61,504 nucleotides of DNA from Pyrinomonadaceae bacterium (GTDB lineage Bacteria; Acidobacteriota; Blastocatellia; Pyrinomonadales; Pyrinomonadaceae). A program made the position numbers and the translations under genes. Shown here piece after piece: positions 9,590-49,576 of the stretch (its first letter is position 1; each line of letters begins with the position of its first letter). The stretch covers positions 1 to 61,504 of the forward strand of contig DATNFX010000313.1 of the NCBI GenBank assembly GCA_035606195.1, in the 5' to 3' direction. A model generated the notes under the pieces. The model was not told where the DNA came from. It saw only the letters and a list, made by a program, of their open reading frames with translations, and ran no database searches.

Positions 9590-10114
9590 ATGATTCAGGA
9601 CGTCAGCGATAGACCAACTTGGTACGCAATCTGCACAAATCCTCAGCAGGAAGACCGAGCTTGCAGTAATCTGCGCGCGTGGGGAGTAGAATGCTTGAAC
9701 CCCAAAATTAAGGAGTCTCGACGTAATCATTTCACGGGCATCGCCGAAGTCATTTCCAAACCATTGTTCCCGCGTTACATTTTCTCACGCTTCGAACTGA
9801 AAGGCGCATTTCACAAGATCAGTTTTACCAGGGGTGTCCATCGTGTGGTAAGTTTCGACGGTCGGCCCACTCCAATTGATGAAGACGTGATCGCGTTGAT
9901 TCAGTCGCGCGTAGGCAGCGATGGATTCGTCAAGATAGGTGCGAGCTTGAAACCTGGCGATGTGGTGCGAGTCAAAGATGGTCCGTGGAAGGCCCTGACC
10001 GGTGTAGTAGAGCGTGAGTTCAAGACAAACGAGAGGATCACGCTCCTATTGCAGTCCATCAAGTATCAGAGTCGCCTGACAATTGAAAGTCATTGGGTTG
10101 AGAAGATCAGTTGA
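9590..10114 (+). CDS. NusG-paralog transcription antiterminator (RfaH/LoaP/UpxY/TaA-like)
   Basis: 174 aa. AAGGAGG RBS at 9574-9580. NGN-like N-terminus (WYAICTNPQQE...KPLFPRYIF) and KOW motif (LKPGDVVRVKDGPWKALTGVVE). Confidence 0.8.
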   Translation: MIQDVSDRPTWYAICTNPQQEDRACSNLRAWGVECLNPKIKESRRNHFTGIAEVISKPLFPRYIFSRFELKGAFHKISFTRGVHRVVSFDGRPTPIDEDVIALIQSRVGSDGFVKIGASLKPGDVVRVKDGPWKALTGVVEREFKTNERITLLLQSIKYQSRLTIESHWVEKIS

Positions 10115-10290
10115 TTTACGTTAGGCCCTTCAGTCCTTGATTGAAGTAAATGATTTAAGCGTTCCCCATAGTGACCTCCCCGAACAGTGAACGAATATGA
10201 GTGAGTCCGCGCGGCTTTATGTCCGCGGTCTCATTCGAACCGGTTTCACCAGGTAATCCCAGTTTCGTAGATTGCACCTCTGGTGCAGAG

Positions 10291-10309
10291 TGCGGTAGCT
10301 CTGCCTGCC
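10291..10309 (+). promoter_or_regulatory. ops-like box TGCGGTAGCTCTGCCTGCC (copy 1)
   Basis: Contains GCGGTAGC, which matches positions 2-9 of E. coli ops (GGCGGTAGCGTG). 17/19 identical to 47271-47289. On the non-template strand of the leader, 65-71 nt before the first megasynthase start. Preceded by a TGCACC-TCT-GGTGCA hairpin (10273-10287). Confidence 0.5.
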
Positions 10310-10355: not shown

Positions 10356-13300
10356 TTGTCAATGAGTACAAACACCCTCGCTATCCGTGAGCGCAACGCT
10401 GAAGTGCCGTCTACTTCGCTGACGCTCGTCGAGCTTCTAAGAAACCGAGCGCGGCTCCACGCCGATAGGGCTGCATATATCTTTCTCTCGGATGGAATCA
10501 CCGAAGAGACCACGCTGACCTGGGGAGATCTCGACCTCCAGGCGCGTGCCATGGGCGCATGGCTGCAATCGCTTACTGCTCGCCGAGAACGAGTACTCTT
10601 GCTTTACCCTGCCGGTCTCGAATACATCACCGCTTTCTTCGGGTGCTTGTATGCGGGTGTAATCGCTGTTCCAGCTTATCCGCCAAGGCAAAACCGGAAC
10701 CTGCGCCGCTTGCACTCGCTGATAATCGACGCGCAGCCGGCTGTCGCTTTAACTACCCGACCAATCTTGTCTCGAGTAATCAATTCATTCGGCAAAAATC
10801 CGGAGCTTGCAATGCTTCGCTGGGTTGCGTCTGAAGATAGACCAACCGCAGAACCGGAAAACTGGCAAGCGCCTGAAATCGCCCCGACTGACCTTGCGTT
10901 CTTGCAATACACATCAGGATCGACGTCGGCCCCCAAGGGCGTGATGCTGAGTCATAGCAATCTCGTCCAAAACGATCGTTTGATACATAAAGCTTTCGGC
11001 CAAACAGAACAGTCAGTCATAGTGAGTTGGCTGCCGCTTTATCACGACATGGGCCTTATCGGCGTCGTTCTTCACGCGTTGTCGGCCGGCGCGCGGTGCA
11101 TTCTCTTGTCGCCGACGGCGTTTTTGCAGCAGCCCTTTCAGTGGCTTCAGACTATCTCTCGCTATCGTGCCACCACGAGTGGTGGGCCAAACTTTTCCTA
11201 CGATCTCTGCGTGCGAAAGATTACCGATGAACAACGGGCCACGCTGGATCTGAGCTCGTGGAGTGTTGCCTTCAATGGCGCTGAAACTGTTCGCGCCGAA
11301 ACGATGGATAGGTTCGCCGCGGCCTTCGCCCCCTGCGGTTTTCGTCGCGAAGCGTTCCGGCCTTGTTACGGATTGGCCGAAGCAACGTTGATTGTGTCTG
11401 CTCGCGGCGAGTCCAGAGCTGAAGAGAACCGGCCTCTCGTCAAACACGTTTGCAAAACATCGCTGGAACAAAATCGCGTGATCGAGTTGGGGAAGAAAAC
11501 TCCAGACGCCCGCACAGTGGTCACGTGTGGTGCGCCGCTGTGCGCTCGGGAAGTGATCATCGCCAATCCCGATACATTGACGGGATGTGCGGCCAATGAG
11601 GTGGGTGAGATCTGGGTGTCAAGCCCAAGTGTCGCCGCCGGCTATTGGAACAACACCGAAGAGAGCGCGCGTACATTTCGAGCTGTTCCAAATGGTAGTA
11701 AAGCGACGTATCTGCGCACCGGCGACCTGGGCTTTCTTCTTGACGGTGAACTTTTTTTGACCGGTCGCCTCAAAGATTTGATCATCACGCGCGGGCGGAA
11801 CCTTTACCCTCAGGACATAGAAGGTACTGTTGAGCAGTGCGATCCGTCGCTTCGTCCGGGCTGTGGAGCTGCGTTCTCGGTAACGGTCGAGAGTGAGGAG
11901 CGCGTGGTCATAGTCCACGAGATAGAACCTCGGCGCACGGTGGAACTACAGTCTCTCATTACCTCAATACGCCAGGCCATTAGTGAAGAACATGAAGTAG
12001 TGGTGTATTCGGTTGCACTCGTCAAAGCTGGAATGGTCCCGAAGACATCCAGTGGCAAAATTCAGCGGAAAGCATGTCGCGAACTGTTTTTAGAAGGCGG
12101 ACTGGCGCCGATTGCCTATTGGCTGGAGACGCCTTTCGGCCATAAAGAAAACCTGTCCGATTCTCTGCGGCCCGCAGACTCTCTGAACGGAGCAGAGACG
12201 CTGAATTGGCTTCGCCTTCAGTTTGCGCAAGTTGTGAACATCAGCGCGGCCGAGATCGACATTCATCAGCCAATCCTGCGCTATGGTTTGGATTCACTGC
12301 TGGCGACTGAGTTGACACATCGCATTGAGTCAGAGCTGGGGATAGCAGTTCCGCTTACGAGTTTGTTGGAAAGCCCCACGATTGAGCAACTCGCAGCCAG
12401 TATTTGCGGCGAGGCTTTCGTCCGGGATAACGAAGAGCTGGTGGGACCTACACCTCTGACGAACACATCCTCAGAATATCCACTCTCATTCGGACAACAG
12501 TCACTCTGGTTTCAGCACCGCATGGCGCCGGACAGCGCCGCCTACAATCTCGCCAGTGCGTTGCGTCTCCGAGGACCTCTGAATGCGGTAGCTCTGGAGC
12601 GCGCCTTTGCATCTCTGGTGCAACGTCACGCGATGCTCAGGACCACCTTCTCTCAAAATAGCCTCGCTCCGCGCCAGCAAATACACGAAGAAATGCCCGT
12701 TTGCTTCGAGTTCGCTGACGCCTCATCGTGGAGCGAAGCCGCTGTACGCGAGTATTTGTTAAAGGAAGCGGAAGGGCCTTTCGACTTGTCCGCAGGACCA
12801 CTGCTACGGGTGAACCTGCTGAAGCGAGCTGACGATGAACACGTGTTGCTCGTCGCCGTTCATCACATCATCGTCGACTTCTGGTCCCTGTCAGTTTTGA
12901 TGAAGGAACTGGGTGTGCTCTACGAAGCGCACCGGAATGGTATGGATGCCAACCTGCCACCTTTGCAGTTGCAATACACGGATTACGTGCGCCACGAGAT
13001 GGAAGATCTCGAAGGGCCGCGCGGTAAGAGACTGTTGGAGTATTGGCAGCAACAGCTTGGTGGAGTGTTGCCGTTATTGAATCTCCAAACCGACTGGCCA
13101 AGACCCTCGCTGCAAACATTTCGCGGCTCTTCACAGAGTTTCAAGGTTAGCGCCGGCCTTACACACAAACTCAAAGAGCTTGGTCGAGAAACTGGCACAA
13201 CTCTGTACATGGTCCTGCTCGCGGCGTTTCAGCTGTTGCTCCATCGATACACGCAACAGAAGGAATTCCTGATCGGCTCACCGGTTGCGGGTCGTAACTC

Positions 13301-16300
13301 AGCGGCGCTCGCGTCTGTGATGGGATATTTCGTTAATCCTCTGGTTCTGCGAGCTGACATCTCCGGCGATCCCTCATTCATCGATTTGCTCGCGCGTGTG
13401 CGAGACACGGTGCTGAGCGCGCTGGCCCACCAGGATTGTCCCTTTGCTTTGCTTGTGGAACACCTCGAGCCAACACGTGACCCCAGCCGAAGTGCTCTGT
13501 TTCAACACATGTTTGTTATGCAGCAGTCCGCTATTGCGGGGGTGGGAGGACTATCGGAACAACTCGGCGAACTAGCCATGGAGCCAATCGCTTTGGATCG
13601 GCATGTTTCGATCTTCGATTTGAGGCTTGAGGTCGCACAAGCGGAAAAAACGCTGATCGGCTCGATGGAATACAACAGTGATTTGTTCGAGGCGACGACG
13701 ATCGAACGCATGCTGGGCCACTTTGAAACGTTGCTACAGAGCATTGTCGCGAACCCGGAAAAATGTGTTTCCAAACAAGCACTCCTCACGCCTGCCGAGA
13801 ATCAACAGTTGCTCGCTGAATGGAACGATACAACGGTGGATCGACCAGATAAGGCGCTGCATCAGCTCATTGAGGCCCAGGTCGCGCGGACGCACAATCT
13901 CGTCGCGGTGATCTTTGAAGATCAAAAGGTAACTTATGCTGAACTCGATCAACGGGCAAACGCGCTTGCCGCTGAATTGCGGCGGCGCGGGGTTGGACCA
14001 GACGTAATCGTCGCCATATGCATGGAGCGTTCAATCGAACTGGTGGTCGCTCTCCTTGGAGTATTGAAGGCCGGGGGGGCCTATTTGCCTCTCGATCCGG
14101 ATTATCCACGCGACCGGCTTCACTTCATGATTGAAGACTCGCGGCCCCCCGTGCTGCTGACGCAGAAACACGTGCGGCACAACCTGCCGAATTTCGCGGC
14201 ATGTCAAACGCTGTGTGTCGACGACGAAGTCTTCCCCGCAGCTCAAATAAACTCGGAAGTGACTGCCTCCAACCTGGCATACGTCATCTACACTTCGGGC
14301 TCTACGGGCTGGCCCAAAGGCGCGATGAACACGCACGCGGGTATCGTCAATCGTTTGCTGTGGATGCAGGAACAGTACGAATTGACCTCCACCGACTGTG
14401 TGCTCCAGAAAACGCCTTTCAGTTTTGATGTTTCGGTGTGGGAGTTTTTCTGGCCGCTGCTGACGGGCGCAAGGATGGTCCTGGCCAGGCCCGGTGGGCA
14501 CCAGGATCCCGCTTACCTCGCGGAGTTGATCGAGCGCGAGCATGTCACGACGATTCACTTCGTGCCGTCGATGTTGCAGATGTTTCTGGCAAACGCTGAC
14601 GCGAGCCGCTGCGACAGCTTGAAACGAGTGATCTGTAGTGGCGAGGCGTTGTCAAATGAACTGCAAGAGCGTTTCCACGCACGGCTCGGCGCGGAACTCC
14701 ACAACCTCTATGGCCCAACCGAAGCATCGGTAGATGTCACCTACTGGAAATGTGAGAGAGATGCGCGGCGGGCGGTAGTACCTATCGGACGGCCAATAGC
14801 CAACCTCGAGATCTTTTTGCTCGATGCGCTCGGCCATCCGGTTCCTGCCGGCGTTGTGGGTGAATTACACATAGGCGGCGTTGGGCTGGGCCGTGGTTAT
14901 TTCAATCGTCCTGAGTTGACCGCAGAACGTTTCCGACCGCACCCGTTTTCCAGCAAACCGGGAACTCAACTCTATCGCACAGGCGATCTCGGGCGCTATC
15001 GACCAGATGGTCAAATCGAGTTTCTGGGGAGGGTGGATCAGCAAGTTAAGCTGCGGGGCTTTCGCGTCGAGCTGGGCGAGGTTGAAGAGGCGCTCAGGGC
15101 GCACACTGCAGTGCGCGATTGTGTGGTAACAACAGCCGAAATCCTGCCCGGAGACATGAGGCTCGTCGCGTACGTGGTCCATGAAGGTAACGCCAGCGCA
15201 AACTCGGAAGAACTGCGGCGTCATTTGAGAGTAAGACTGCCGGAATACATGGTGCCGTCATATTTCGTGGCGCTCGAAACAATACCCCTTCTGCCAAATG
15301 CCAAGGTTGATCGTCGCAACCTGCCGCCGCCATCCGACCTGAGACTCGAGTTAACAAAAGAATTCGTTGCGCCTCGGAATCAGATCGAGAAGCAGTTGGC
15401 GGCGATCTGGGTTGAGGTCCTGGGCCTGGGGCAAGTGGGAGTTGATGACAACTTCTTCGAACTCGGCGGGCACTCGTTGCTGGCGATGCAGATAGTGGCT
15501 CGCATTAACCAGTTGTACCTGATCGATTTTCCACTGCGCAGGATGTTCGAAACTCCCACGGTCGCAGGAATCGCGCAATATCTTTCGGCGATGCGCCGCG
15601 CGGATGCGAAGCAGGAACAGCAACCGAGCAAACGCGCGCCGCGCCAGGTTGACTTACAACTCTCGTTTGCACAGGAGCGACTATGGTTTCTTGATCAGCT
15701 TGATCCTGTTAACTCAGCCTATAACATGCCAATCGTTCTTCGCATCCGCGGGCGACTAGACCTCGCTGTGTTGGAGCGTAGCGTGCAGGAAATCATCCGC
15801 CGCCATGAGATCTTGCGCGTGAGCCTCACCAACGTGAAGGGAAAGCCGGTGCAGGTGATTGCGCCGTTCGAAGAGTGGCGGTTGCGTGTGTTTGATCTGT
15901 TTGGTACCGCCAAATCGGACCGTTGGAATGAAGTGATTCGTTATGCGACGAAAGAAGCACAACGACCTTTCGATCTCACGCAAGGCCCACTGCTGCGCGC
16001 TGCCGCCTGGCAGATTGACGTGAATGACTATCTTCTTGTGCTCGTGATGCACCACATCGTCAGCGATGGCTGGTCGTTGGGAGTGTTCGCTAACGAATTG
16101 AAGACTCTCTACAAGGCCTATAGCGATGGCCGGCCTTCGCCGTTGCCCGATTTGTCGATTCATTACTCCGACTTCGTTCACTGGCAGCGTGAACGCCTTG
16201 CGAGTGAAGCAGCAGCCGAGCAACTTGATTACTGGAAGCGTCAACTTGCAGGACGTCTGCCGGCGCTCGTGTTGCCGGGCGAACATTTGCGCCGGCCGGC

Positions 16301-19300
16301 GCCGTCGGTCCAGGTTGCCGCCGAATCTTGCGCGCTTCAGTCACAATTGATCCAGAGGCTCAAAGAATTCAGTTGCGCGAGTGGGGTCACTCCGTTCATG
16401 ACTCTGCTGGCAGTCTTTCAGATCCTGCTGCAACGTTACACCGGGCTTGATGATGTTCTCGTAGGCACTCCGGTCGCCGGCCGCACGCGCGTCGAGACCG
16501 AAACCCTGATCGGATTGTTCACGAACACACTCGTTCTTCGTACCGATCTTTCGGGTAATCCGACGTTCCTTGAATTGCTCGGTAAAGTGCGCGAAACGAC
16601 ACTCGAAGCGCACGCGCACCAAGACGTTCCGTTTGAAATGCTCGTGGAGGTGTTACAACCGGAACGAGACTTAACCCGCACGCCTCTTTTTCAGGTGATG
16701 ATTGTGTTTGATCCACCTCTGCCGGAGGTCGATCTTCCTGGGTTGCAACTGGAACAGGTCGAACTGCCTGCCGCCGCACCCAAATTCGATTTGATTCTCT
16801 TTCTGAAGGAACGGGACGGTGAACTGATCGCGCGCTTTGAATATGACACCACACGTCTCGATCAAAAAACCGTGCAGCGTTTGGCGAGGCATTTCCAGAC
16901 TCTGCTGGTGAACGCGCTCGCGCACGCAGAAACGCACATCTCGGATCTCGAGCTAATGACCAAAACCGAGGCGCAGCGTCTCCGCAACGATTGGAACGAT
17001 ACGTACAAACAGTACCCGCGAGAGGTTTGCTTGCATCAGCTATTCGAAGCACAGGCGGCGCGTACACCGGAGCTCGTTGCTTTAGTTGCCGGCCGCGAAT
17101 GCTTGAGCTACCGCGAGTTGAATCAGCGTGCTAATCGGCTGGCCCATCATCTTCGCGCGCTGGGTGCCGGCCCGGAGTCTTTGGTGGGCGTGCTGCTAAA
17201 TCGCTCAACTTCGCTTGTGGTGGCGTTGCTTGGAGTGCTCAAAGCTGGAGCCGCGTATGTTCCACTCGATCCGGACTACCCGCGCGAGCGACTGCGTTTG
17301 ATGATCGACGCAAACATCAATGTGTTGGTCACGCAGGAGAACCTGAAATACAACTTGCCACCATACAACGCCAGCGTCACTTGTCTGGATGCAGAGTGGG
17401 GAAGTATTGCGCTCGAGAGCGGCGACGATCCCGTGTGTTTGAACACACTTTCACAGCTCGCCTATCTGATCTACACCTCCGGTTCCACTGGTAAACCCAA
17501 AGCTGCGGCTATTGAGCACCGTAATGTCGTCACGCTCATGCATTGGGCGCGCGAGCTGTTTACCACGATCGAGCTCGGGGGTGTGCTGGCTTCGACGTCC
17601 GTCTGCTTCGATCTATCAGTGTTCGAGATCTTCGTTCCTCTGTGTTGGGGCGGCAAGGTGATACTCGCTGCGAATGCGCTTGAGTTACCAACGCTCAACG
17701 CAGCGAGTGAAGTGACACTAATCAATACCGTGCCGTCGGCCATGACCGAACTGATCAGGATAAGCGGTGTTCCCAAATCTGTGCGGACGGTAAATCTCGC
17801 CGGCGAGGCGCTCCATCATTCGCTGGTGCAGCGGATTTACGAATTGGAAGGCGTGGAGCGAGTGCTAAACCTTTACGGCCCTTCAGAAGATACAACTTAC
17901 TCGACCGGGGCGACGATCGACAGATGTGACTCTCAAGCGCCCACGATAGGCCGGCCAATTGCCAACACGCAGGCTTACATACTCGATATTCATCAGAAGG
18001 CACTGCCGATCGGCGTCGCCGGCGAGCTTTACGTCGCGGGCGATGGACTTGCTCGCGGTTATTTCAATAGACCTGATCTCACGGCGGAAAAGTTCATTCC
18101 AAATCCGTTCGCAGGCGCACCGGGCATGCGCATGTACCGCACTGGCGATCTCGCACGCTATTTGTCAGACGGGCAAATCGAGTTTCTTGGACGCAGCGAT
18201 CATCAGGTGAAGCTACGCGGCTTTCGTATCGAACTCGGTGAGATTGAGACGATGCTTCGCGAACACCCTGAGATACGCGACGCGGTAGTTATCATGCGTC
18301 AACAGAATGAAGATCAAGTCCTTGTGGCGTACGTGGTGAATGAGAGCGAGCAAGCGGTGACGCCGAAGAAGTTAAAAGCATATCTTTCCAAACGTCTTCC
18401 AAAGCACATGGTACCGGCGTTCATCGTACCCCTCGCGGCACTGCCATTAACTCCGAACGGCAAGGTCGATCGCCGTGCTTTGCCTTCACTTGAAACCAGC
18501 GATGAGGTTCAGGAAGACGCGATTGTCTTGCCGCGCACAGATATTGAATCGAGGCTGACGGGCCTGTGGTCACAATTGCTAAAACGGCGACAGATCGGAG
18601 TCCACGACGACTTCTTCGCGCACGGTGGGCACTCACTACTCGCCGTTCAACTCGTCTCACGCATTCGTGATGAGTTTCAGGTTGACCTGCCACTGCGCAG
18701 TGTCTTCGAGACAGCGACGATCGCTGAGCTTGCGAGGCTTGTCGAAAATGCATCGCTGTTTTCCTCGCCGATTCCCAAAATTCAGCGGTCGAAGCCGGCG
18801 CCGCTATCGTTCGCTCAGCAGCGGCTCTGGTTTCTGGATCGACTGGCGCCTGGAAGTTCCGCGTACAACATCTTCGGCGGTATACGTTTACGCGGCGAAC
18901 TGGACCAGACGGCATTTGCGCAATCCCTGAACGCCATCGTCGAAAGACACGAGATTCTGCGCACGGCGTTCACCACAGTTGACTGGCAGCCTGCGCAGGT
19001 CGTCTCCGCGGCGCAACCGGTCTCGCTCAGTTTCATAGATCTGCCTGGCGCGACCGAAGACGAGCGGGAGACGAAACTGCGAACACTGGCGAATGACGAA
19101 CTGAGTCGTCCTTTCAATCTGTCCGATGGGCCTTTACTGCGCTTGATTCTCCTGCGACTTAATGAAGAAGAACACGTGGCGCTGGTGACAATGCACCACA
19201 TCGTCGCCGATGGATGGTCCCTGAACATCTTTGTGAAGGAGTTCGCCGAGTTTTATCGAGCGTTCCACACCGGTCAACCCGCGCAGCTCGCGACATTGCC

Positions 19301-20213
19301 GATTCAATATGCCGACTATGCTCACTGGCAGCGCGCATGGTTTGATGACGAGAGGCGGGAAATTCAGCTCGATTACTGGCTTCGCACGTTGACAGGCACA
19401 CTGCCTGTGCTCGAGCTTCCAGTGGACCACGCTCGTCCATCTGAGCCGACTTTGCGGGGCGAGAAACTGGTTCATAAGTTTTCCGCTGAACTTTCCGAAA
19501 AGCTGCGCGAACTCAGTCGTCGCGAAGGCGCGACGCTCTTCATGGTCCTGCTGGCCGCGTTCAAAACGCTGCTATACCGATACACGAACCAGGACGATTT
19601 GATCGTCGGCACCGCGGTGGCCGGGCGTAATCGATCCGAGCTCGAGGGTCTCATCGGGATCTTCATCAACATGCTCGTATTGCGAACAAACGTCTCGGGG
19701 AATCCGACATTCGTTGAGTTGCTGCGGCGCGTGCGCGAAGTGATGCTCGAGGCTTACGCACACCAGGACGTGCCGTTTGAGCGACTCGTCGAGAAGTTAC
19801 AGCCCAATCGCACACTGGCCCGCTCGCCGTTCTTTCAGGTTGCCTTTGGGCTGCAGCACGAGCGGATCCAAAATCTAGCTTTACCGCGACTCGAGCTGAG
19901 TCCTGTCAGCTTCGACACGGATCTGGCGAGGTACGACCTGACGTTGTGGGTCTTTGAAAACGAAAGCGAATTGGAAGCGTCCTGGACGTTCAGCAAGGAC
20001 CTCTTCCGGCCGGAAACGATCGGGCTTATGAACCTGCGCTTTCAGACGCTGCTGCTCAGTGTCGTCAAAGAGCCCGAGCTACGGCTTAGTGAATTGGAAA
20101 TGCATTCCGACGAAGAGCGAAGACACGTCGCGATTCGCGAGCGTGAGTCGGAAGCATTGAGTGTAAGTAAGTTACTTTCCGTCAAACGGCGGGCCGTCAG
20201 AGTAGGGCAGTGA
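10356..20213 (+). CDS. lipoinitiation NRPS: FAAL-ACP-C-A-T-C-A-T-C
   Basis: Track start is TTG 10356; ATG 10362 is an equally plausible start. FAAL motif YTSGSTSAPKG (from 10908). Carrier serines at 12294, 15474 and 18633. C motifs HHIIVDF (12861), HHIVSDG (16050) and HHIVADG (19194). A cores YTSGSTGWPKG (~14289) and YTSGSTGKPK (17472). Ends in a C domain with no cis A-T. Confidence 0.95.
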   Translation: MSMSTNTLAIRERNAEVPSTSLTLVELLRNRARLHADRAAYIFLSDGITEETTLTWGDLDLQARAMGAWLQSLTARRERVLLLYPAGLEYITAFFGCLYAGVIAVPAYPPRQNRNLRRLHSLIIDAQPAVALTTRPILSRVINSFGKNPELAMLRWVASEDRPTAEPENWQAPEIAPTDLAFLQYTSGSTSAPKGVMLSHSNLVQNDRLIHKAFGQTEQSVIVSWLPLYHDMGLIGVVLHALSAGARCILLSPTAFLQQPFQWLQTISRYRATTSGGPNFSYDLCVRKITDEQRATLDLSSWSVAFNGAETVRAETMDRFAAAFAPCGFRREAFRPCYGLAEATLIVSARGESRAEENRPLVKHVCKTSLEQNRVIELGKKTPDARTVVTCGAPLCAREVIIANPDTLTGCAANEVGEIWVSSPSVAAGYWNNTEESARTFRAVPNGSKATYLRTGDLGFLLDGELFLTGRLKDLIITRGRNLYPQDIEGTVEQCDPSLRPGCGAAFSVTVESEERVVIVHEIEPRRTVELQSLITSIRQAISEEHEVVVYSVALVKAGMVPKTSSGKIQRKACRELFLEGGLAPIAYWLETPFGHKENLSDSLRPADSLNGAETLNWLRLQFAQVVNISAAEIDIHQPILRYGLDSLLATELTHRIESELGIAVPLTSLLESPTIEQLAASICGEAFVRDNEELVGPTPLTNTSSEYPLSFGQQSLWFQHRMAPDSAAYNLASALRLRGPLNAVALERAFASLVQRHAMLRTTFSQNSLAPRQQIHEEMPVCFEFADASSWSEAAVREYLLKEAEGPFDLSAGPLLRVNLLKRADDEHVLLVAVHHIIVDFWSLSVLMKELGVLYEAHRNGMDANLPPLQLQYTDYVRHEMEDLEGPRGKRLLEYWQQQLGGVLPLLNLQTDWPRPSLQTFRGSSQSFKVSAGLTHKLKELGRETGTTLYMVLLAAFQLLLHRYTQQKEFLIGSPVAGRNSAALASVMGYFVNPLVLRADISGDPSFIDLLARVRDTVLSALAHQDCPFALLVEHLEPTRDPSRSALFQHMFVMQQSAIAGVGGLSEQLGELAMEPIALDRHVSIFDLRLEVAQAEKTLIGSMEYNSDLFEATTIERMLGHFETLLQSIVANPEKCVSKQALLTPAENQQLLAEWNDTTVDRPDKALHQLIEAQVARTHNLVAVIFEDQKVTYAELDQRANALAAELRRRGVGPDVIVAICMERSIELVVALLGVLKAGGAYLPLDPDYPRDRLHFMIEDSRPPVLLTQKHVRHNLPNFAACQTLCVDDEVFPAAQINSEVTASNLAYVIYTSGSTGWPKGAMNTHAGIVNRLLWMQEQYELTSTDCVLQKTPFSFDVSVWEFFWPLLTGARMVLARPGGHQDPAYLAELIEREHVTTIHFVPSMLQMFLANADASRCDSLKRVICSGEALSNELQERFHARLGAELHNLYGPTEASVDVTYWKCERDARRAVVPIGRPIANLEIFLLDALGHPVPAGVVGELHIGGVGLGRGYFNRPELTAERFRPHPFSSKPGTQLYRTGDLGRYRPDGQIEFLGRVDQQVKLRGFRVELGEVEEALRAHTAVRDCVVTTAEILPGDMRLVAYVVHEGNASANSEELRRHLRVRLPEYMVPSYFVALETIPLLPNAKVDRRNLPPPSDLRLELTKEFVAPRNQIEKQLAAIWVEVLGLGQVGVDDNFFELGGHSLLAMQIVARINQLYLIDFPLRRMFETPTVAGIAQYLSAMRRADAKQEQQPSKRAPRQVDLQLSFAQERLWFLDQLDPVNSAYNMPIVLRIRGRLDLAVLERSVQEIIRRHEILRVSLTNVKGKPVQVIAPFEEWRLRVFDLFGTAKSDRWNEVIRYATKEAQRPFDLTQGPLLRAAAWQIDVNDYLLVLVMHHIVSDGWSLGVFANELKTLYKAYSDGRPSPLPDLSIHYSDFVHWQRERLASEAAAEQLDYWKRQLAGRLPALVLPGEHLRRPAPSVQVAAESCALQSQLIQRLKEFSCASGVTPFMTLLAVFQILLQRYTGLDDVLVGTPVAGRTRVETETLIGLFTNTLVLRTDLSGNPTFLELLGKVRETTLEAHAHQDVPFEMLVEVLQPERDLTRTPLFQVMIVFDPPLPEVDLPGLQLEQVELPAAAPKFDLILFLKERDGELIARFEYDTTRLDQKTVQRLARHFQTLLVNALAHAETHISDLELMTKTEAQRLRNDWNDTYKQYPREVCLHQLFEAQAARTPELVALVAGRECLSYRELNQRANRLAHHLRALGAGPESLVGVLLNRSTSLVVALLGVLKAGAAYVPLDPDYPRERLRLMIDANINVLVTQENLKYNLPPYNASVTCLDAEWGSIALESGDDPVCLNTLSQLAYLIYTSGSTGKPKAAAIEHRNVVTLMHWARELFTTIELGGVLASTSVCFDLSVFEIFVPLCWGGKVILAANALELPTLNAASEVTLINTVPSAMTELIRISGVPKSVRTVNLAGEALHHSLVQRIYELEGVERVLNLYGPSEDTTYSTGATIDRCDSQAPTIGRPIANTQAYILDIHQKALPIGVAGELYVAGDGLARGYFNRPDLTAEKFIPNPFAGAPGMRMYRTGDLARYLSDGQIEFLGRSDHQVKLRGFRIELGEIETMLREHPEIRDAVVIMRQQNEDQVLVAYVVNESEQAVTPKKLKAYLSKRLPKHMVPAFIVPLAALPLTPNGKVDRRALPSLETSDEVQEDAIVLPRTDIESRLTGLWSQLLKRRQIGVHDDFFAHGGHSLLAVQLVSRIRDEFQVDLPLRSVFETATIAELARLVENASLFSSPIPKIQRSKPAPLSFAQQRLWFLDRLAPGSSAYNIFGGIRLRGELDQTAFAQSLNAIVERHEILRTAFTTVDWQPAQVVSAAQPVSLSFIDLPGATEDERETKLRTLANDELSRPFNLSDGPLLRLILLRLNEEEHVALVTMHHIVADGWSLNIFVKEFAEFYRAFHTGQPAQLATLPIQYADYAHWQRAWFDDERREIQLDYWLRTLTGTLPVLELPVDHARPSEPTLRGEKLVHKFSAELSEKLRELSRREGATLFMVLLAAFKTLLYRYTNQDDLIVGTAVAGRNRSELEGLIGIFINMLVLRTNVSGNPTFVELLRRVREVMLEAYAHQDVPFERLVEKLQPNRTLARSPFFQVAFGLQHERIQNLALPRLELSPVSFDTDLARYDLTLWVFENESELEASWTFSKDLFRPETIGLMNLRFQTLLLSVVKEPELRLSELEMHSDEERRHVAIRERESEALSVSKLLSVKRRAVRVGQ

Positions 20214-20256
20214 ATTAGGATTCTCCGGGCAAGAGCTGCAGAGAAGAAATTCGAAT

Positions 20257-21294
20257 ATGAGTAGTCCGGCTCAATTCAAACGGGCGCGCAATGCTGTCCG
20301 GTTGATGTCGTCATCACTCGTCAGGCCCTACTACCTTGACGATGAGCGGAGAATGCCGCTGGTGATTGAACCCTCCTCGACCGACCTCGATCTCGTTTCA
20401 TGGGCCAGCGATCGCCGCCAGTTCATTGCGGACGAGTTATCACGTCACGGTGCGTTGTTGCTGCGCGGTTTCAGCATCCGCTCTGTGCAGCAGTTTGAGC
20501 AGTTTATTGACGTGACATCGGGTGGCGCGCTGCCGTACAGTGAACGCTCATCTCCACGCAGCCAGGTCAGTGGCAACATTTTTACGTCGACTGACTATCC
20601 CGCATCGGAAAAGATATTTCTGCACAATGAGCAGTCATATAACCTCCAGTTTCCTCTGAAGATTTATTTCTTTTGCCTCTTGCCCGCGGAAGTCGGGGGC
20701 GAAACGCCCGTGGCCGATACGCGACAACTTCTCGCTTCGATCCGGCCCGATATTCGCCGCCGCTTTTCAGAACAGGGCTACCTGTACGTTAGAAATTTCG
20801 GCAACGGCTTTGGGCTGTCATGGCAGGAGACCTTCCAAACGAGCAGCAAAACTGAAGTTGAGCAGTATTGTCGACAGCACCAGATCGGGTGCCAGTGGTT
20901 GGCCGGCAACCGATTAAGAACGTCGCAGCGACGCGACGCGATCGCCACACACCCGCGGACGGGAGAACAAGCGTGGTTCAATCATGCGACCTTTTTCCAC
21001 GTCTCGACTCTGGAACCGGTAATCCGTGAACGCGTGCTGGCGGAGTTTCCGGAAGTCGCTCTCCCAAACAACACCTACTACGGTGACGGCTCGCGTATTG
21101 AAGCTGAAACGATGGACCACCTTCAAGGCGTTTACCTGCAACACAAGATCCCCTTCACGTGGCAACAGTTTGATGTGCTGATGCTCGACAATATGCTCGC
21201 CGCGCACGGACGTGAAGCGTTCAAGGGACAGCGAAAAGTCGTAACCGGCATGGCCGATCCTAATCTCTGGAAAGATTGTAAAGCGAAAGACTGA
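20257..21294 (+). CDS. TauD/TfdA-family (SyrP-like) Fe(II)/2-oxoglutarate hydroxylase, paralog 1
   Basis: 345 aa. HxE facial-triad motif FLHNEQSY and distal LAAHGREAF. Size and genomic context are typical of hydroxylases acting on carrier-bound amino acids. Confidence 0.8.
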   Translation: MSSPAQFKRARNAVRLMSSSLVRPYYLDDERRMPLVIEPSSTDLDLVSWASDRRQFIADELSRHGALLLRGFSIRSVQQFEQFIDVTSGGALPYSERSSPRSQVSGNIFTSTDYPASEKIFLHNEQSYNLQFPLKIYFFCLLPAEVGGETPVADTRQLLASIRPDIRRRFSEQGYLYVRNFGNGFGLSWQETFQTSSKTEVEQYCRQHQIGCQWLAGNRLRTSQRRDAIATHPRTGEQAWFNHATFFHVSTLEPVIRERVLAEFPEVALPNNTYYGDGSRIEAETMDHLQGVYLQHKIPFTWQQFDVLMLDNMLAAHGREAFKGQRKVVTGMADPNLWKDCKAKD

Positions 21295-21299
21295 AAACT

Positions 21300-22325
21300 A
21301 TGAGCGGGAGTTTCGTAGCCGTCAGACGCAAGACGGTAAGGTTGAGTAGCGCGGAACTGGTAACGACCGGTTACCTCTCGGCTGGCGCCAGGAATCTTCC
21401 TTTAGTGATCCAGCCAAAGGTTGAGGGAGTTGACCTCATCGGTTGGACTGAATCGCAGCGCGCTCTTATCGAATCAGAGTTGTTGGGACATGGCGCCATC
21501 CTGTTTCGCGATTTCGGCGTCGAGTCTGAGACGCACTTCGAAAAGTTCGCCCGCACGCTCACTCCGGAATTGATCGACTATCTGGAGCGCGCCGCGGCAC
21601 GACGCGAGGTCGCCCCGAACATTTTTACCTCGACCGAATATCCGGCCGACCAGGCAATCCCGCTGCATCATGAGATGTCGTACTCGCACAACTGGCCCGG
21701 CAAGATTTACTTCTACTGCGCGCAACCAGCGTTAAGTGGAGGGGCAACTCCGATATCGAACGACCGCGTAGTGATCAACCGCATCGACCCGGCGATCAAA
21801 GAGCAGTTCAGACGGAAGAAGGTCATGTACGTCCGAAACTTCGGTGTGGGACTCGACCTTTCATGGCAGGAAGCTTTTCAGACTACTGATCGCGCCGTCG
21901 TGGAAAGATACTGCGCCGGCGTGCACATGACGTGCGAGTGGCGCGACGGGGATCGACTGCGAACGCGATCTGTGCGGCAGACGTTCGCGACTCATCCTGT
22001 TACTGGCGAGATTGTCTGGTTCAATCACGCACACATGTTCCACATCTCAAACGTGGAGCATTCGGCCCGCGAGGCTTTGCTGGCCCACTTCCGTGAAGAC
22101 GAACTGCCGCGAAATGCGTTCTACGGTGATGGTTCACCGATTGAAAGCTCAGTGCTCAGCGAGATTAGAGAAGTTTACGCTGAGGCGGCCGTACGTTTTT
22201 GCTGGGAGGAAGGCGACGTGCTTTTACTCGACAACTTCCTTACCTCACATGGTCGTGAGGCCTTCACCGGGCCTCGCCGGATCCTGGTTGCAATGGCCGA
22301 TCTCTTTACCCCGAGCACGGTCTAA
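21300..22325 (+). CDS. TauD/TfdA-family (SyrP-like) Fe(II)/2-oxoglutarate hydroxylase, paralog 2
   Basis: 341 aa. PLHHEMSY and LTSHGREAF motifs. Collinear similarity to the preceding gene, which ends 5 nt upstream. Confidence 0.8.
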   Translation: MSGSFVAVRRKTVRLSSAELVTTGYLSAGARNLPLVIQPKVEGVDLIGWTESQRALIESELLGHGAILFRDFGVESETHFEKFARTLTPELIDYLERAAARREVAPNIFTSTEYPADQAIPLHHEMSYSHNWPGKIYFYCAQPALSGGATPISNDRVVINRIDPAIKEQFRRKKVMYVRNFGVGLDLSWQEAFQTTDRAVVERYCAGVHMTCEWRDGDRLRTRSVRQTFATHPVTGEIVWFNHAHMFHISNVEHSAREALLAHFREDELPRNAFYGDGSPIESSVLSEIREVYAEAAVRFCWEEGDVLLLDNFLTSHGREAFTGPRRILVAMADLFTPSTV

Positions 22326-22383
22326 CCACAAAAGCCACATAACTCACATTAATTGAAGATCTAATCGGAAGGACAAGAGACAC

Positions 22384-23700
22384 GTGACAGAACAAGTCGT
22401 GGAGGGGTTCGAACTCTCGAGGCAACAACGGCGCATATGGTCTATGCAAGATAACGGCGACGCCTTTCAATCGCAGTGCGCGATCCTGCTCGAAGGCGCT
22501 TTGAATAAACGGGCGCTGCGTCAAGCCCTGCAAATAGCCATCGCGAGTCACGAAATTTTGCGCACTTCGTTCCGCTCGTTGTCCGGCATGAAGTTTCCCA
22601 TCCAGGTGATTAGCGAAGATGCAGATGCACCAGCTCTAAATGAGTGTGATCTGAACTGCGAACTCGAAGAACTCCTGTTGGAAGAACTTCGTACGCCTTT
22701 CGATCTGGATGCCCCCTCTCTGATTCGCTGCAAGCTACTGAATCTTTCGCAGGACAGGCATGTATTGATTTTGGGGCAGCCGGCGTTGTGCGCCGACGCC
22801 GAATCGCTCGTTCAGTTGTTTATCAAGCTGGGCCGCTTCTACGCATCATCTGTAACGGGCAAGGCCATTGTTGAGGAGCCCGTGCAGTTTGTGGACTTTT
22901 CAGAGTGGCAACGCGAACTGCAGACCTCCGCGGATGCGGCAGCCCAGAGAGAGTACTGGAGCCGGCAGATCACGACGGCAAACCCGGATTCACTGGTGCT
23001 TCCGACGGAAAGTAGTGAACGAACGGAAAATTTTGCGCCACGCCCGTTTAATTTCGAGATCCCCCGGGACATATCACAAAGCAGCGAAGCTCTCGCGCTT
23101 GCGCTTGATGCGTCAATCGAGACGCTGTTGTCGTCATGCTTACAAATCCTGCTGTGGCGTCTCACCGGACAGTCAGAAATTGTGACGGGCCATTTTTCGA
23201 ATGGCCGGCGGATCTCACACCTGCGTGAATGTCTCGGCCCGGCCGGCGATTATTTACCTCTTGCTGGTCGCTTCGATCGAAAGCTCCGATTCTCCGAGGT
23301 GGTGAAGCGCAACCATGAGGCAGTAAAAGCAAATCGCATCCACGAAGAATACTTCTCGCAAACAGACGAGAGCCAACTTCCTTTGCTCGCGAAGTTCGAT
23401 TTCATGGAATGGCCCAAACCATCGCTGGCTGCTGACGTGCGTTTCTCTCTCCTCAGAGTTTATAGCACCGCCGATCGGTACAAAGTGAGACTTTCCGTGA
23501 CGCGCCGGGATTCGACGCTAATGGCCGTGCTTCACCACGACGAGGCTTTGTATACATCGGAGTTCGCCGAACGCTTCGCGGGTCAATTCACAGCTCTCAT
23601 GCAAAGCGCATTGGCGCAGCCGGATTCGTCGATTGCCGATCTTGATGTGCTCGGCGAAGAGGAACGCCGGTTGGTGATCGATCAGTGGAACGATACCGCC
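22384..23700 (+). other. condensation-like domain lacking both catalytic histidines
   Basis: Collinear with C domains (N-terminal LSRQQRRIW), but the DRHVLILGQPALCADAESL segment replaces ..HHxxxDGWS. The 3' boundary is approximate. Confidence 0.7.
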
Positions 23701-33242: not shown

Positions 33243-33281
33243 ATTTTCACGGGGTTCTGGGTAGTGCCTCAATTTCAATTG

Positions 33282-33380
33282 TTCTCTTTGCAACCTCTGT
33301 GTTCTCTGTGCCTCTGTGGTCATAGGAATGCACGATACAACAACCACAAGACACAGAGAGCACAGAGGTTGCAAAGAGAA
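33282..33380. repeat. long imperfect inverted repeat (39/38-nt arms, 22-nt loop) with internal CTCTGTG tandem units
   Basis: Left arm 33282-33320 (TTCTCTTTGCAACCTCTGTGTTCTCTGTGCCTCTGTGGT). Right arm 33343-33380 is its near-perfect reverse complement: the first 20 nt are identical, followed by 2 mismatches and a 1-nt gap. Confidence 0.85.
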
Positions 33381-33420
33381 GTTCAGCAAGAGACTTAAAG
33401 GGTAAATCAGGTTTCGAACA

Positions 33421-47112: not shown

Positions 47113-47270
47113 TAGAGAGAAAGCCCTGAGCAACTACGTAGTACCTATGTTGTTGTGTGGACACTTCATGCTTACGAGCTCTCGGTAATTAGAACAAGCC
47201 TGCGGACGACTTGTCCGAGTAGGCATCCACACATTTTGTCTTCTCATTTAAGATGCCACTTGGCTTCGGA

Positions 47271-47289
47271 TGCGGTAGCTGTGCCGGCC
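47271..47289 (+). promoter_or_regulatory. ops-like box TGCGGTAGCTGTGCCGGCC (copy 2)
   Basis: 17/19 identical to 10291-10309 and contains GCGGTAGC. Lies 65 nt upstream of ATG 47336. Confidence 0.5.
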
Positions 47290-47335: not shown

Positions 47336-47569
47336 ATGGACCGAGATGACGCAGAAGATCAAACAATCTATAAAGTTGTGCTCAACCACGAAGAGCAGTA
47401 CTCGATTTGGCCTGCCGATCGCGAGAATGCACTCGGTTGGTTTGACGCCGGTAAAACCGGTATGAAGGCCGAATGTCTGGAGTACATCAAAGAGGTCTGG
47501 ACTGACATGAGACCTCTGAGCCTGCGCAAGCATATGGAGGAAGCTGCCGCAAAGCAGTCGAGCGCGTAG
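47336..47569 (+). CDS. mbtH: MbtH-like protein
   Basis: 77 aa. GGAGGG RBS at 47324-47329. Hallmark [24 protein letters not shown]...AECLEYI with the conserved Trp residues. Confidence 0.9.
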
Positions 47570-47655
47570 CCCGGCATGAACTCCTGAGCTCGATCGTTTA
47601 CGCTGCGCCTACCCGCACCCACCTGAGTTGTTTAAGTTCCACAACGGTAAAGACA

Positions 47656-49558: not shown

Positions 49559-49576
49559 GCACGATCAGATAACGAG

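What the first reader, a model, noticed from the sequence alone, without database searches (positions are those of the whole stretch)
10273..10309. ops-like 19-mer conserved in two leaders at matching distance from the first start codon
TGCGGTAGCTCTGCCTGCC (10291-10309) and TGCGGTAGCTGTGCCGGCC (47271-47289) are 17/19 identical. Both contain GCGGTAGC, an exact match to positions 2-9 of the E. coli RfaH recruitment site ops (GGCGGTAGCGTG). Both lie on the non-template strand, 65-71 nt before the first ATG of a long + strand gene block (10356/10362 and 47336). Copy 1 is immediately preceded by a TGCACC-TCT-GGTGCA hairpin (10273-10287). Together with the adjacent NusG paralog, this looks like a dedicated recruitment signal. 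An RfaH-type ops logic in what appears to be a non-proteobacterial BGC would be new to me.

Caveat: the short core alone is not significant. GGCGGTAG and GCGGTAG also occur inside coding sequence at 14771 and ~18283. The weight is in the 19-mer conservation and its positioning.
Basis: partly seen in the sequence, partly recalled or inferred. Interest (0 to 1): 0.8.

Follow-up and report, generated by a model that had tools for sequence, protein, structure and literature searches.

The report
Antiterminator loading site in acidobacterial antibiotic cluster
Two short conserved boxes in front of the two gene blocks of a soil-bacterium (Acidobacteriota) peptide/polyketide cluster are most likely the pause-and-load sites for the RfaH-like transcription elongation factor encoded next door, which extends a mechanism known from E. 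coli and Bacteroides to a new phylum and to antibiotic-type gene clusters.

Summary
Both 19-mers lie at the stated coordinates on the coding strand, in the only two long leaders of the cluster.

The adjacent 174-aa gene is a NusG paralog closest to RfaH, but below the family cut-off. In 80 related loci, all from Acidobacteriota (Blastocatellia/Pyrinomonadaceae), about 50 carry the same box, TGCGGTAGCTCTGCC, within 450 nt of the paralog gene. A covariance model found 53 hits on the paralog's strand and 1 on the other.

The box usually follows, by 1-2 nt, a hairpin whose stem covaries, with many G·U pairs. Downstream genes are NRPS/PKS and accessory genes.

Best reading: a composite ops-type site. 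A nascent-RNA pause hairpin is followed by the canonical GCGGTAGC non-template-DNA hairpin, and together they recruit the cluster-linked paralog for antitermination. It combines the E. coli ops core with the Bacteroides opsX architecture.

AlphaFold predicts a NusG-like β-barrel C-terminal domain, not the autoinhibited RfaH fold.

The "matching distance" to the start codon is not conserved in relatives. No paper in the searched library describes this in Acidobacteriota.

Verdict: a new variant of a known kind. All function is inferred; nothing was tested biochemically.

The parts
9590..10114 (+). RfaH-like specialised NusG paralog (174 aa; NGN + KOW domains)
   Evidence: Pfam NusG NGN domain, E = 4e-14. 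The best NCBIfam match is RfaH TIGR01955 at 99.5 bits, below the cut-off of 144.5; UpxY scores 55, LoaP 49 and NusG 45. The best PDB sequence hit is E. coli RfaH. The AF2 model has pLDDT 83 with a β-barrel C-terminal domain. The NGN domain superposes on RfaH 8pen_P at 1.5 Å.
10272..10288 (+). Hairpin TTGCACC-TCT-GGTGCAG, proposed to act as a nascent-RNA pause hairpin; it ends 2 nt before the box
   Evidence: Sequence read directly; folds at -8.2 kcal/mol. Homologous hairpins with covarying stems occur in related loci. A stem of at least 5 bp is present in 29 of 46 sites against 5.4 in shuffles. On the model-fitted alignment, 93% of cells are paired and 5 of 7 pairs show compensatory changes, against 30-46% paired in slid controls.
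10291..10309 (+). ops-like box, copy 1 (family-conserved core TGCGGTAGCTCTGCC, 10291-10305; contains GCGGTAGC, the E. coli ops hairpin sequence)
   Evidence: 56.8 bits.
10356..46902 (+). First target block: NRPS/PKS megasynthase genes plus two TauD-type dioxygenases, six + strand ORFs with short gaps (largest 178 nt, 33243-33420)
   Evidence: ORF list. TauD domains. Syntenic NRPS genes lie downstream of the paralog in L081 and L082.
47252..47267 (+). Weak hairpin upstream of copy 2 (GCC-ACTT-GGC core)
   Evidence: RNA fold gives -5.6 kcal/mol, not better than shuffles.
47271..47289 (+). ops-like box, copy 2 (TGCGGTAGCTGTGCC core)
   Evidence: covariance-model score 17.3 bits, E = 0.004. The CTGTGCC variant recurs in L024, L043, L053 and L060.
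47336..54338 (+). Second target block: MbtH-like, OTCase-like, PhyH, lantibiotic-dehydratase-N-like and membrane M28 peptidase genes
   Evidence: Pfam. In related loci, M28 peptidase and OTCase genes are the commonest genes directly downstream of paralog plus box.

Best explanation
Each box is a composite ops-type pause-and-recruitment site for the cluster-encoded RfaH-like NusG paralog.

Proposed sequence of events (all steps inferred):
1. RNA polymerase transcribes the leader.
2. The nascent-RNA hairpin and the box sequence halt polymerase.
3. In the open bubble, the non-template strand GCGGTAGC folds into the small ops hairpin.
4. The paralog's NGN domain reads this hairpin and docks on the β' clamp helices, displacing housekeeping NusG.
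5. The modified polymerase then resists pausing and Rho/NusG-dependent termination across the 36-kb megasynthase block.
6. A second box reloads or independently loads the factor before the accessory-gene block.

Because the paralog gene sits 100-430 nt upstream of the box, or just downstream of it in other loci, loading may occur largely in cis.

What is shown: sequence conservation, strand and position bias, hairpin covariation, and protein family and fold. What is inferred: pausing, non-template-DNA recognition, and antitermination.
For: 1. The box is non-random in the window.
2. It is conserved in about 50 of 80 Blastocatellia/Pyrinomonadaceae loci fetched through the paralog alone. It lies within 450 nt of the gene, either downstream of the stop (about 30 loci) or upstream of the start (about 11 loci).
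3. A covariance model of hairpin plus box gives 54 hits at E < 0.01 in 710 kb: 53 on the paralog's strand and 1 on the other.
4. Nothing else is conserved in the spacer between paralog and box.
5. The hairpin stem covaries and includes many U·G pairs, which would be C·A on the opposite strand. The structure therefore belongs to the sense strand, either RNA or non-template DNA.
6. The core GCGGTAGC is identical to the E. coli ops non-template hairpin. The pause hairpin plus GCG..AGC architecture is the one demonstrated for Bacteroides opsX (PMC11685472).
7. The protein is closest to RfaH by profile, sequence and NGN structure. It keeps the residues aligned with RfaH R16, F56, T72, R73 and G74, and lacks the NusG Rho-binding I-F-G loop.
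8. Downstream genes are NRPS/PKS and accessory BGC genes.
9. Boxes with C or A at the position of ops T6 occur with paralogs that all deviate from the Ala-Trp pair at the positions of RfaH R23/Q24. The count is 0/8 against 32/41, Fisher p = 5e-5, spread over at least 5 lineages.
10. In a blind metagenome scan for the 15-mer, 3 of 80 hits had a NusG paralog within 150 nt on the same strand. Two of these paralogs are only 26-31% identical to the window's.
Against: - There is no experimental evidence of pausing, binding or antitermination.
- Four of the five RfaH residues that read ops bases are replaced: K10→N, H20→N, R23→A, Q24→W.
- The spacing between GCGGTAGC and the TG step is 1 nt longer than in E. 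coli ops, so the pause position is uncertain.
- About 30 of 80 homologous loci have no box within ±4 kb. A sub-clade carries a different conserved leader instead.
- Copy 2 and about a third of family sites lack a convincing hairpin.
- The AF2 model shows no autoinhibited α-hairpin, so sequence-gated activation as in RfaH is not predicted.
- L008 and L009 have T-type boxes without the Trp, which weakens the specificity covariation.
- Intrinsic-terminator-like sites in the cluster are at chance level, so what would be antiterminated is unknown.
- The 15-mer alone occurs mostly by chance inside genes of unrelated organisms.
- Sequence data cannot separate non-template-DNA recognition from RNA recognition.
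Confidence: 0.65

Rival explanations
1. The element acts at the RNA level, like the LoaP system. The paralog binds the transcribed hairpin and/or the box as RNA in the leader and is tethered to RNA polymerase that way, with no non-template-DNA readout.
For: - A covarying hairpin with G·U pairs directly abuts the box.
- LoaP, the other NusG paralog linked to polyketide clusters, needs a leader RNA hairpin (PMC12691694).
- The AF2 model has a NusG/LoaP-like β-barrel KOW domain.
- The C-terminal domain is mildly basic: 11 K/R against 7 D/E.
Against: - The invariant part is the single-stranded box, whose core equals the E. coli ops DNA hairpin. The hairpin's own sequence is free to vary and is missing in about a third of sites.
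- The loops are not UNCG-type.
- The LoaP profile is a weaker match (49 bits) than RfaH (99.5 bits).
- In Bacteroides, the analogous hairpin only aids pausing and is not what the factor recognises (PMC11685472).
Confidence: 0.15
2. The box is a promoter element or the operator of a DNA-binding regulator, for example the Crp-family protein at 8526-9260, and controls initiation rather than elongation.
For: - It lies in the leader or intergenic regions of both blocks.
- A Crp/FNR-type gene sits upstream of the paralog in the window and in L081 and L082.
- No σ70-type promoter was detected elsewhere in either leader.
Against: - The box is asymmetric, not a Crp-like palindrome.
- It is strictly strand-specific, 53:1.
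- It lies at variable distances from genes.
- It is found both upstream and downstream of the paralog gene in loci that lack a Crp neighbour.
- The adjacent stem covaries with G·U pairs, which makes no sense for duplex-DNA recognition.
- It does not fit a σ54 promoter: the spacing is GG-N8-GC, not N10. It also lacks a σ70 -10 element of the TAnnnT type (direct reading of alignment A3).
Confidence: 0.07
3. It is a chance similarity, or a dispersed repeat or mobile-element remnant with no regulatory role.
For: - The short core recurs inside coding sequence in the window.
- The 15-mer is mostly a chance hit in metagenomes.
- A true MITE-like repeat does exist in this window and in two related loci.
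Against: - The window statistics argue against chance.
- The box is conserved across paralogs only 42-73% identical to the window's.
- Position and strand are fixed relative to the paralog gene.
- Only about 40 nt are conserved, with no terminal repeats.
Confidence: 0.03

Closest known systems
E. coli RfaH / ops (GGCGGTAGnnTG; non-template-DNA hairpin GCGGTAGC)
   Same: - The 8-nt core GCGGTAGC is identical and lies on the non-template strand of a long-operon leader.
- The partner is a NusG paralog whose best profile, sequence and NGN-structure matches are RfaH.
- The TRGV motif (T72-R73-G74-V75), R16 and F56 are kept, and the NusG Rho-contact loop is absent.
- The targets are long, costly accessory operons.
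   Different: - Only about 26-31% identity to RfaH, and below the TIGR01955 cut-off.
- The base-reading residues K10, H20, R23 and Q24 are replaced by N, N, A and W.
- There is one extra nucleotide before the TG step.
- The box extends 3' (CTCTGCC) and is preceded by a hairpin, whereas the RfaH ops is a hairpin-less pause (PMC11685472).
- AF2 predicts no α-helical autoinhibited C-terminal domain.
- The factor gene is adjacent to its target instead of unlinked.
- There are several paralogs per genome.
- The phylum is Acidobacteriota and the targets are NRPS/PKS clusters.
Bacteroides UpxY / opsX (PMC11685472)
   Same: - A composite site of about 40 nt: a nascent-RNA pause hairpin directly upstream of a GCG..AGC non-template hairpin.
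- The factor is encoded at the operon it controls. In about 11 acidobacterial loci the box precedes the paralog gene, exactly as for upxY.
- Multiple paralogs per genome.
- Variation at the loop position of the DNA hairpin.
   Different: - The UpxY profile is a weaker match than RfaH (55 against 99.5 bits).
- No UpxZ-like partner gene was seen.
- The targets are NRPS/PKS clusters, not capsule loci.
- Most paralogs share the same box rather than locus-specific ones.
- In most loci the box lies downstream of the paralog gene.
LoaP (Firmicutes) and TaA (Myxococcus): NusG paralogs linked to polyketide clusters
   Same: A NusG paralog encoded beside a very long polyketide/NRPS operon, with its determinants in the leader, including a small hairpin.
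   Different: - LoaP recognises a UNCG-tetraloop RNA hairpin and antagonises NusA at a leader terminator (PMC12691694).
- Here the invariant element is an ops-type single-stranded box, the loops are not UNCG, and no leader terminator was detected.
- The mode of TaA recruitment is not known to me.
Predicted monomorphic RfaH homologues next to long operons (bioRxiv 2026, PMC13015549)
   Same: AF2 predicts a β-barrel C-terminal domain, and the gene lies within 1 kb of a long operon. This fits the proposed ancestral, cis-acting mode.
   Different: - Those homologues are associated mainly with LPS and secretion operons, according to the paper.
- Here there is a conserved ops-like box, which the cis model alone would not require.
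- Here there is also a second box 37 kb away.

Membership tests
RfaH (TIGR01955 equivalog) | Profile score above the curated cut-off | tested here: not met
   99.5 bits against a cut-off of 144.5. RfaH is nevertheless the best-scoring family.
RfaH (TIGR01955 equivalog) | NGN + KOW two-domain NusG architecture with an RfaH-like NGN domain | tested here: met
   Pfam NusG NGN domain. The AF2 NGN domain superposes on RfaH 8pen_P at 1.5 Å rmsd over 98 columns.
RfaH (TIGR01955 equivalog) | C-terminal domain folded as an α-helical hairpin that autoinhibits the NGN domain (metamorphic) | tested here: not met
   AF2 with an 83-sequence alignment gives a five-strand β-barrel C-terminal domain at pLDDT 68-85. 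This is a prediction only. E48 is replaced by K and F130 by V; I93 is kept (alignment).
RfaH (TIGR01955 equivalog) | ops-reading residues K10, H20, R23, Q24 and R73 | tested here: not met
   Only R73 is kept (R81). K10→N17, H20→N27 (invariant in the clade), R23→A30, Q24→W31. The backbone-contact residues R16, T72 and G74 are kept.
RfaH (TIGR01955 equivalog) | Loss of the NusG Rho-binding loop (I-F-G) and retention of F56 for β' clamp-helix binding | tested here: met
   The loop reads S-I-K. F65, equivalent to F56, is invariant in 83 homologues.
ops element (RfaH-type recruitment site) | GCGGTAGC on the non-template strand of the leader of a long operon | tested here: met
   Both copies lie on the + strand, 65-71 nt before the first start codon. 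The box is conserved in about 50 related loci on the transcribed-sense strand.
ops element (RfaH-type recruitment site) | Full 12-nt consensus GGCGGTAGnnTG with the pause at U11 | tested here: inconclusive
   Position 1 is T, not G. The TG step is displaced by 1 nt (GCGGTAGC-TN-TG). The pause position cannot be determined from sequence.
ops element (RfaH-type recruitment site) | Induces an RNA polymerase pause and binds the factor through the non-template-DNA hairpin | not testable with these tools
   This needs in vitro transcription or scaffold assays.
Bacteroides opsX / UpxY | Pause-hairpin-encoding segment directly upstream of a YGCGNAGCR non-template hairpin | tested here: met
   A covarying hairpin ends 0-3 nt before TGCGGTAGC. 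The box resembles YGCGNAGCR but carries two loop bases (GT) between GCG and AGC where that pattern, as quoted in PMC11685472, has one N, and it ends in T rather than R.
Bacteroides opsX / UpxY | Protein passes the UpxY subfamily profile (NF033644); UpxZ partner present | tested here: not met
   55.3 bits against a cut-off of 100. No small partner gene follows the paralog in the window.
LoaP | Protein passes the LoaP profile (NF033641); UNCG RNA hairpin and NusA-dependent terminator in the leader | tested here: not met
   49.2 bits against a cut-off of 125. The loops are TCT, CTT, TGGC and similar. No terminator-like site lies in either leader on the + strand.

The most novel reading that the evidence does not exclude
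Recognition of the GCGGTAGC non-template hairpin may not be a late proteobacterial invention. It may instead be an ancient, shared property of a broad RfaH/UpxY/acidobacterial group of NusG paralogs.

In Blastocatellia it would be read by a different set of NGN residues: Asn/Ala/Trp in place of His/Arg/Gln. The factor would be non-autoinhibited, loaded largely in cis, and assisted by an RNA pause hairpin. Several paralogs per genome would be partly discriminated by the flipped-out base (T, C or A), which co-varies with NGN helix α1. This system would gate expression of many of the giant NRPS/PKS clusters of soil Acidobacteriota.
Probability: 0.3. Interest if true: 0.75.

Novelty: new variant of a known kind. 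Interest (0 to 1): 0.62.

Why it matters
**Natural-product discovery.** Soil Acidobacteriota are among the richest uncultured reservoirs of giant NRPS/PKS clusters. If these clusters need a cognate NusG paralog and its leader box for full-length transcription, heterologous expression should keep the leader and co-express the paralog. The box plus paralog would also become a cheap marker for operon starts in metagenomic clusters.

**Transcription biology.** The exact E. coli ops hairpin appears with a protein that lacks four of the five base-reading residues and probably lacks fold-switching. That gives a natural experiment on how ops recognition, pausing and autoinhibition evolved. It bears on the published scenario that sequence-specific DNA contacts arose last and within Proteobacteria (PMC7593976).

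Tried and rejected
- **σ54 promoter.** The conserved TTGGCGCAA-N2-TGC gives GG-N8-GC, not the obligatory N10 (reading of A3). Rejected.
- **σ70 promoter.** No consensus hit in either leader, and TAGCTC lacks the T at position 6 of a -10 element. Rejected.
- **Intrinsic terminator or attenuator at the hairpin.** No T-run follows it, and no + strand terminator-like site lies in either leader. Terminator-like sites across the cluster are at chance level.
- **Alternative stem GCAGAG/CTCTGC enclosing the box in copy 1.** It pairs in the AAAG/CTTT subgroup but is not kept across the family (reading sequences). Not pursued.
- **Possible GGTA/TGCC stem inside the box.** The observed G13→A and C14→T changes keep pairing, but the A-type boxes (T6→A) break the T6·G13 pair, whereas most C-type boxes keep it as C·G. 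Unresolved.
- **Rfam.** No family reached gathering score in the window or in four related loci.
- **Metagenome scan with the bare 15-mer.** Most of the 80 returned hits lie inside long ORFs of unrelated organisms, so it gives no enrichment statistic. Only the 3 paralog-linked hits and L145 were informative.
- **Fixed distance to the start codon.** Not conserved.
- **Third intergenic gap (54339-54686).** No box. It holds a MITE-like inverted repeat instead.
- **Literature.** Five full-text searches found no paper on acidobacterial ops or NusG paralogs. The supplements of PMC7593976 that are held as text do not list Acidobacteria.

Full report
**1. The observation**

They are 17/19 identical. 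The hairpin TGCACC-TCT-GGTGCA is at 10273-10287 and extends to seven pairs with T10272·G10288.

A degenerate 19-mer allowing three mismatches finds 3 sites in the 61.5-kb window against 0.07 expected; 0 of 100 shuffles reach 3. The third site, at 54980, has three mismatches, lies inside a CDS, and is probably chance. GCGGTAGC occurs 6 times against 1.7 expected, and GCGGTAG 11 times against 5.6, including 14772 and 18282 in coding sequence. The two leaders resemble each other only over about 20 nt.

**2. The surroundings**

ORF 9590-10114 encodes a 174-aa NusG-family protein (Pfam NGN domain). Its best NCBIfam match is RfaH at 99.5 bits, below the cut-off of 144.5. It scores higher than UpxY (55), LoaP (49) and housekeeping NusG (45). 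A Crp/FNR-type regulator lies upstream at 8526-9260.

Downstream of copy 1, a series of + strand ORFs with only short gaps (largest 178 nt) runs from 10356 to 46902. It holds megasynthases of 3285, 1357, 2262 and 4493 aa, plus two TauD dioxygenases.

A 434-nt gap then holds copy 2. It is followed by genes for MbtH, an OTCase-like protein, PhyH, a lantibiotic-dehydratase-N-like protein and a membrane M28 peptidase. The two boxes therefore sit in the only two long leaders of the cluster, on the non-template strand.

**3. Relatives**

The paralog has many homologues, and the named ones are Acidobacteria/Pyrinomonadaceae MAGs. A scan of one genome per species returned 80 loci, all from Acidobacteriota (Blastocatellia/Pyrinomonadaceae). 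Many MAGs contribute two or three loci.

These loci were chosen through the protein only. Even so, GCGGTAG lies on the paralog's strand within -600 to +700 nt of the gene in 44 of them, and about 41 share the extended consensus TGCGGTAGCTCTGCCC. With up to 2 mismatches to the 15-mer, nearly all matches in 607 kb are on the paralog's strand and within 450 nt of the gene.

- About 30 loci have the box 124-433 nt after the stop codon, the same layout as the window.
- About 11 loci have it 35-350 nt before the start codon, the layout of upxY in Bacteroides.
- A few loci have a second box 1-4 kb away (L021, L049, L070), like window copy 2.

In the spacer between paralog and box, nothing else is conserved among the closest relatives.

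The two closest long-contig relatives have the same synteny: Crp-like gene, paralog, then an NRPS of more than 3000 aa. Across 76 ORFs downstream of the boxes, the commonest families are:

| Family | ORFs |
|---|---|
| Peptidase_M28 | 20 |
| AMP-binding | 16 |
| Condensation | 9 |
| OTCase | 3 |
| MbtH | 2 |

ABC transporters, thioesterase and ketoacyl synthase also occur. The association is with NRPS/PKS-type clusters.

**4. The hairpin**

Most boxes are preceded, 0-3 nt upstream, by a hairpin whose arms differ between loci but stay complementary. Examples of 5' arms are TTGCACC, TTTGAGTT, TCGAGC, AATTGC, ATCGC, TCCGC, CACTTG and GTCGC.

A stem of at least 5 effective pairs is present in 29 of 46 sites, against 5.4 on average (maximum 11) in shuffles. 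A covariance model built from six sites found 54 hits at E < 0.01 in the window plus L001-L082, 710 kb on both strands. Of these, 53 were on the paralog's strand and 1 on the other.

On the resulting alignment 93% of cells pair. Five of seven pairs carry changes on both sides (37 cells). The covariation score is 0.215. With the 3' partner slid by 1-3 columns, only 30-46% of cells pair and the score falls to 0.015-0.055. The alignment is fitted to the model, so these numbers lean towards the structure.

Many pairs are U·G, which would be C·A on the other strand. The structure therefore belongs to the sense strand, either nascent RNA or non-template DNA.

The hairpin is not universal. About a third of sites, including window copy 2, have a weak one or none.

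**5. The protein**

Against solved structures by sequence, E. coli RfaH is the best match (E = 3e-9).

| Feature (E. coli RfaH numbering) | State in the window protein |
|---|---|
| R16, F56, I93, T72-R73-G74-V75 | kept |
| NusG Rho-contact loop I-F-G | absent; reads S-I-K |
| K10, H20, R23, Q24 (four of the five residues that read ops G5/T6) | N17, N27, A30, W31 |
| E48, F130 (autoinhibition) | K, V |

AlphaFold2 with 83 homologues (mean pLDDT 83) gives a β-barrel KOW domain, not the α-hairpin of free RfaH. Foldseek matches the whole model to active-state RfaH and to NusG. It matches the NGN domain to RfaH at 1.5 Å. This fits the class of predicted monomorphic RfaH homologues that sit next to long operons and are proposed to load in cis (PMC13015549).

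**6. Box variants and specificity**

Eight loci carry C or A in place of the T that corresponds to ops T6.

- TGCGGCAGC: L030, L038, L039, L051, L055, L066
- TGCGGAAGC: L007, L034

None of their paralogs has the Ala-Trp pair at the positions of RfaH R23/Q24. Among T-type loci, 32 of 41 have it (Fisher p = 5e-5). The eight fall into at least five lineages whose nearest T-type relatives mostly have Ala-Trp.

This is what direct reading of that base by NGN helix α1 would predict. The sample is small and phylogenetically structured, and L008 and L009 are T-type without Trp.

**7. Breadth and limits**

Most of the 80 loci returned have the 15-mer inside long ORFs of unrelated organisms, so they are chance hits. 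The 15-mer alone is therefore not diagnostic.

Three hits have a NusG paralog within 150 nt on the same strand:

- L114, 47% identical to the window's paralog.
- L116, 31% identical, from a low-GC organism, with RfaH and UpxY profile scores about equal.
- L092, 26% identical, which passes the UpxY cut-off.

The same core is therefore used with quite distant paralogs.

Conversely, about 30 of the 80 acidobacterial loci have no box within ±4 kb. Thirteen to fifteen of them share a different, strongly conserved leader of about 170 nt upstream of the paralog, with no Rfam match.

**8. Mechanism**

The anatomy matches what was demonstrated for Bacteroides UpxY. There, a roughly 40-bp opsX contains a NusA-responsive nascent-RNA pause hairpin followed by a GCG..AGC non-template-DNA hairpin, which the NGN domain reads. 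The authors note that all E. coli ops sites encode GCGGTAGC (PMC11685472).

Suppose T6 sits at -6 as in E. coli. Then G2 is at -10, which fits the consensus pause. The 3' base of the hairpin would be at about -13 or -14, within the range reported for opsX pause hairpins. The pause would fall at the variable N of CT(N)TG. This register is inferred.

I therefore commit to this reading: a composite ops-type pause-and-load site for the cluster-linked RfaH-like paralog, giving processive transcription of the 36-kb block, with a second site before the accessory block. Confidence is about 0.65.

The rivals are:

- LoaP-like RNA recognition (0.15). Sequence data cannot separate this from non-template-DNA recognition.
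- A promoter or operator (0.07). Strand specificity, asymmetry and stem covariation all argue against it.
- Chance or a dispersed repeat (0.03).

**9. Known or new**

The kind of system is known: specialised NusG paralogs with a leader signal, as in RfaH/ops, UpxY/opsX, LoaP and TaA.

I tested family membership, and the protein is not a bona fide RfaH, UpxY or LoaP. It falls below each curated cut-off, it carries different base-reading residues, and no autoinhibited fold is predicted.

Five full-text searches found no description of this element or clade in Acidobacteriota. The 2020 survey reports RfaH-model hits in 23 phyla, but 95% are in Proteobacteria, and it places the origin of RfaH and its DNA contacts there (PMC7593976).

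I rate this a new variant of a known kind. It has the E. coli ops core in a Bacteroides-like composite site, with a probably non-metamorphic factor, and it gates NRPS/PKS clusters in a new phylum.

Noticed in passing
L011:3830-4000 and the homologous stretches of L012, L013, L014, L018, L020, L037, L041, L058, L062, L068, L078, L080 (alignment A6, columns ~503-665): In a sub-clade of paralog loci that lack the box, the 600 nt upstream of the paralog carry a strongly conserved, strand-specific block of about 170 nt. It includes a long hairpin, AGCTCCGTCGTTAC-TGGCCG-GTAACGACGGAGC. It also includes the stretch GCGCAAAGTGCAGTGTGG, which shares GCGCAAAGTGC with the hairpin-arm-plus-box of the ops-like class. 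No Rfam family matches. It may be a diverged or alternative leader element.
   Followed up: partly
L011:3965-3990 and homologues (alignment A6, columns ~845-870): A conserved hairpin, GACTCCATT-N3-5-AAATGGAGC, contains the GGAG Shine-Dalgarno sequence and lies 8-10 nt before the paralog start codon in the same sub-clade. It may sequester the ribosome-binding site and so control paralog translation.
   Followed up: no
window 54333-54624: A MITE-like element lies in the gap between the M28 peptidase gene and the next NRPS gene. It has nested inverted repeats: arms of 52 nt (92% complementary, 136 nt apart) and 23 nt. Its terminal hairpin, AAAGCCTGGGGCGYAAGCCCCARG, recurs as an inverted pair in L001:4694-4847, between the box and the first gene, and in L073:3454-3608.
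   Followed up: partly
L030:3907, L038:213, L039:3909, L051:3907, L055:3966, L066:4718 (TGCGGCAGC); L007:4757, L034:4759 (TGCGGAAGC): These box variants change the base equivalent to ops T6. L007 and L034 come from the same MAG (SMAG_U1897), and both of its paralogs lack the Trp aligned with RfaH Q24. Other MAGs hold one T-type and one C-type locus (SMAG_U11209, SMAG_U8955).
   Followed up: partly
L116:806-1366; L092 (paralog at 1420-773 on the - strand; box at 1414-1428 on the - strand): Two metagenome contigs from other, unidentified organisms carry the same TGCGGTAGCT.TGCC box next to distant NusG paralogs. L116 is AT-rich and has a MarR-like gene, the paralog, the box and a PhyH gene. L092 has a paralog that passes the UpxY profile, with the box 83 nt upstream of it.
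   Followed up: partly
window 51993-54338; L008:4814-7171, L010:4678-7026, L019:4845-7217 and about 17 more: A membrane protein of about 780-800 aa, with an M28 peptidase domain followed by many predicted membrane segments, is the commonest gene directly downstream of paralog plus box (20 of 76 ORFs). It is often paired with an OTCase-like gene. It looks like a conserved accessory module of these clusters, perhaps for maturation or self-protection.
   Followed up: no
L005, L007, L008, L009 (alignment A10, columns ~178-197): A small conserved hairpin, GGAGA(N)CCTGACACTCCG, lies about 100 nt upstream of the box in four close relatives. It is absent from the window.
   Followed up: no
window 10340-10365: The first megasynthase gene has no obvious Shine-Dalgarno sequence before either candidate start (TTG 10356, ATG 10362), whereas mbtH after copy 2 has GGAGGG. 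RfaH-dependent operons in E. coli often lack a Shine-Dalgarno sequence. Related loci are mixed on this point.
   Followed up: no
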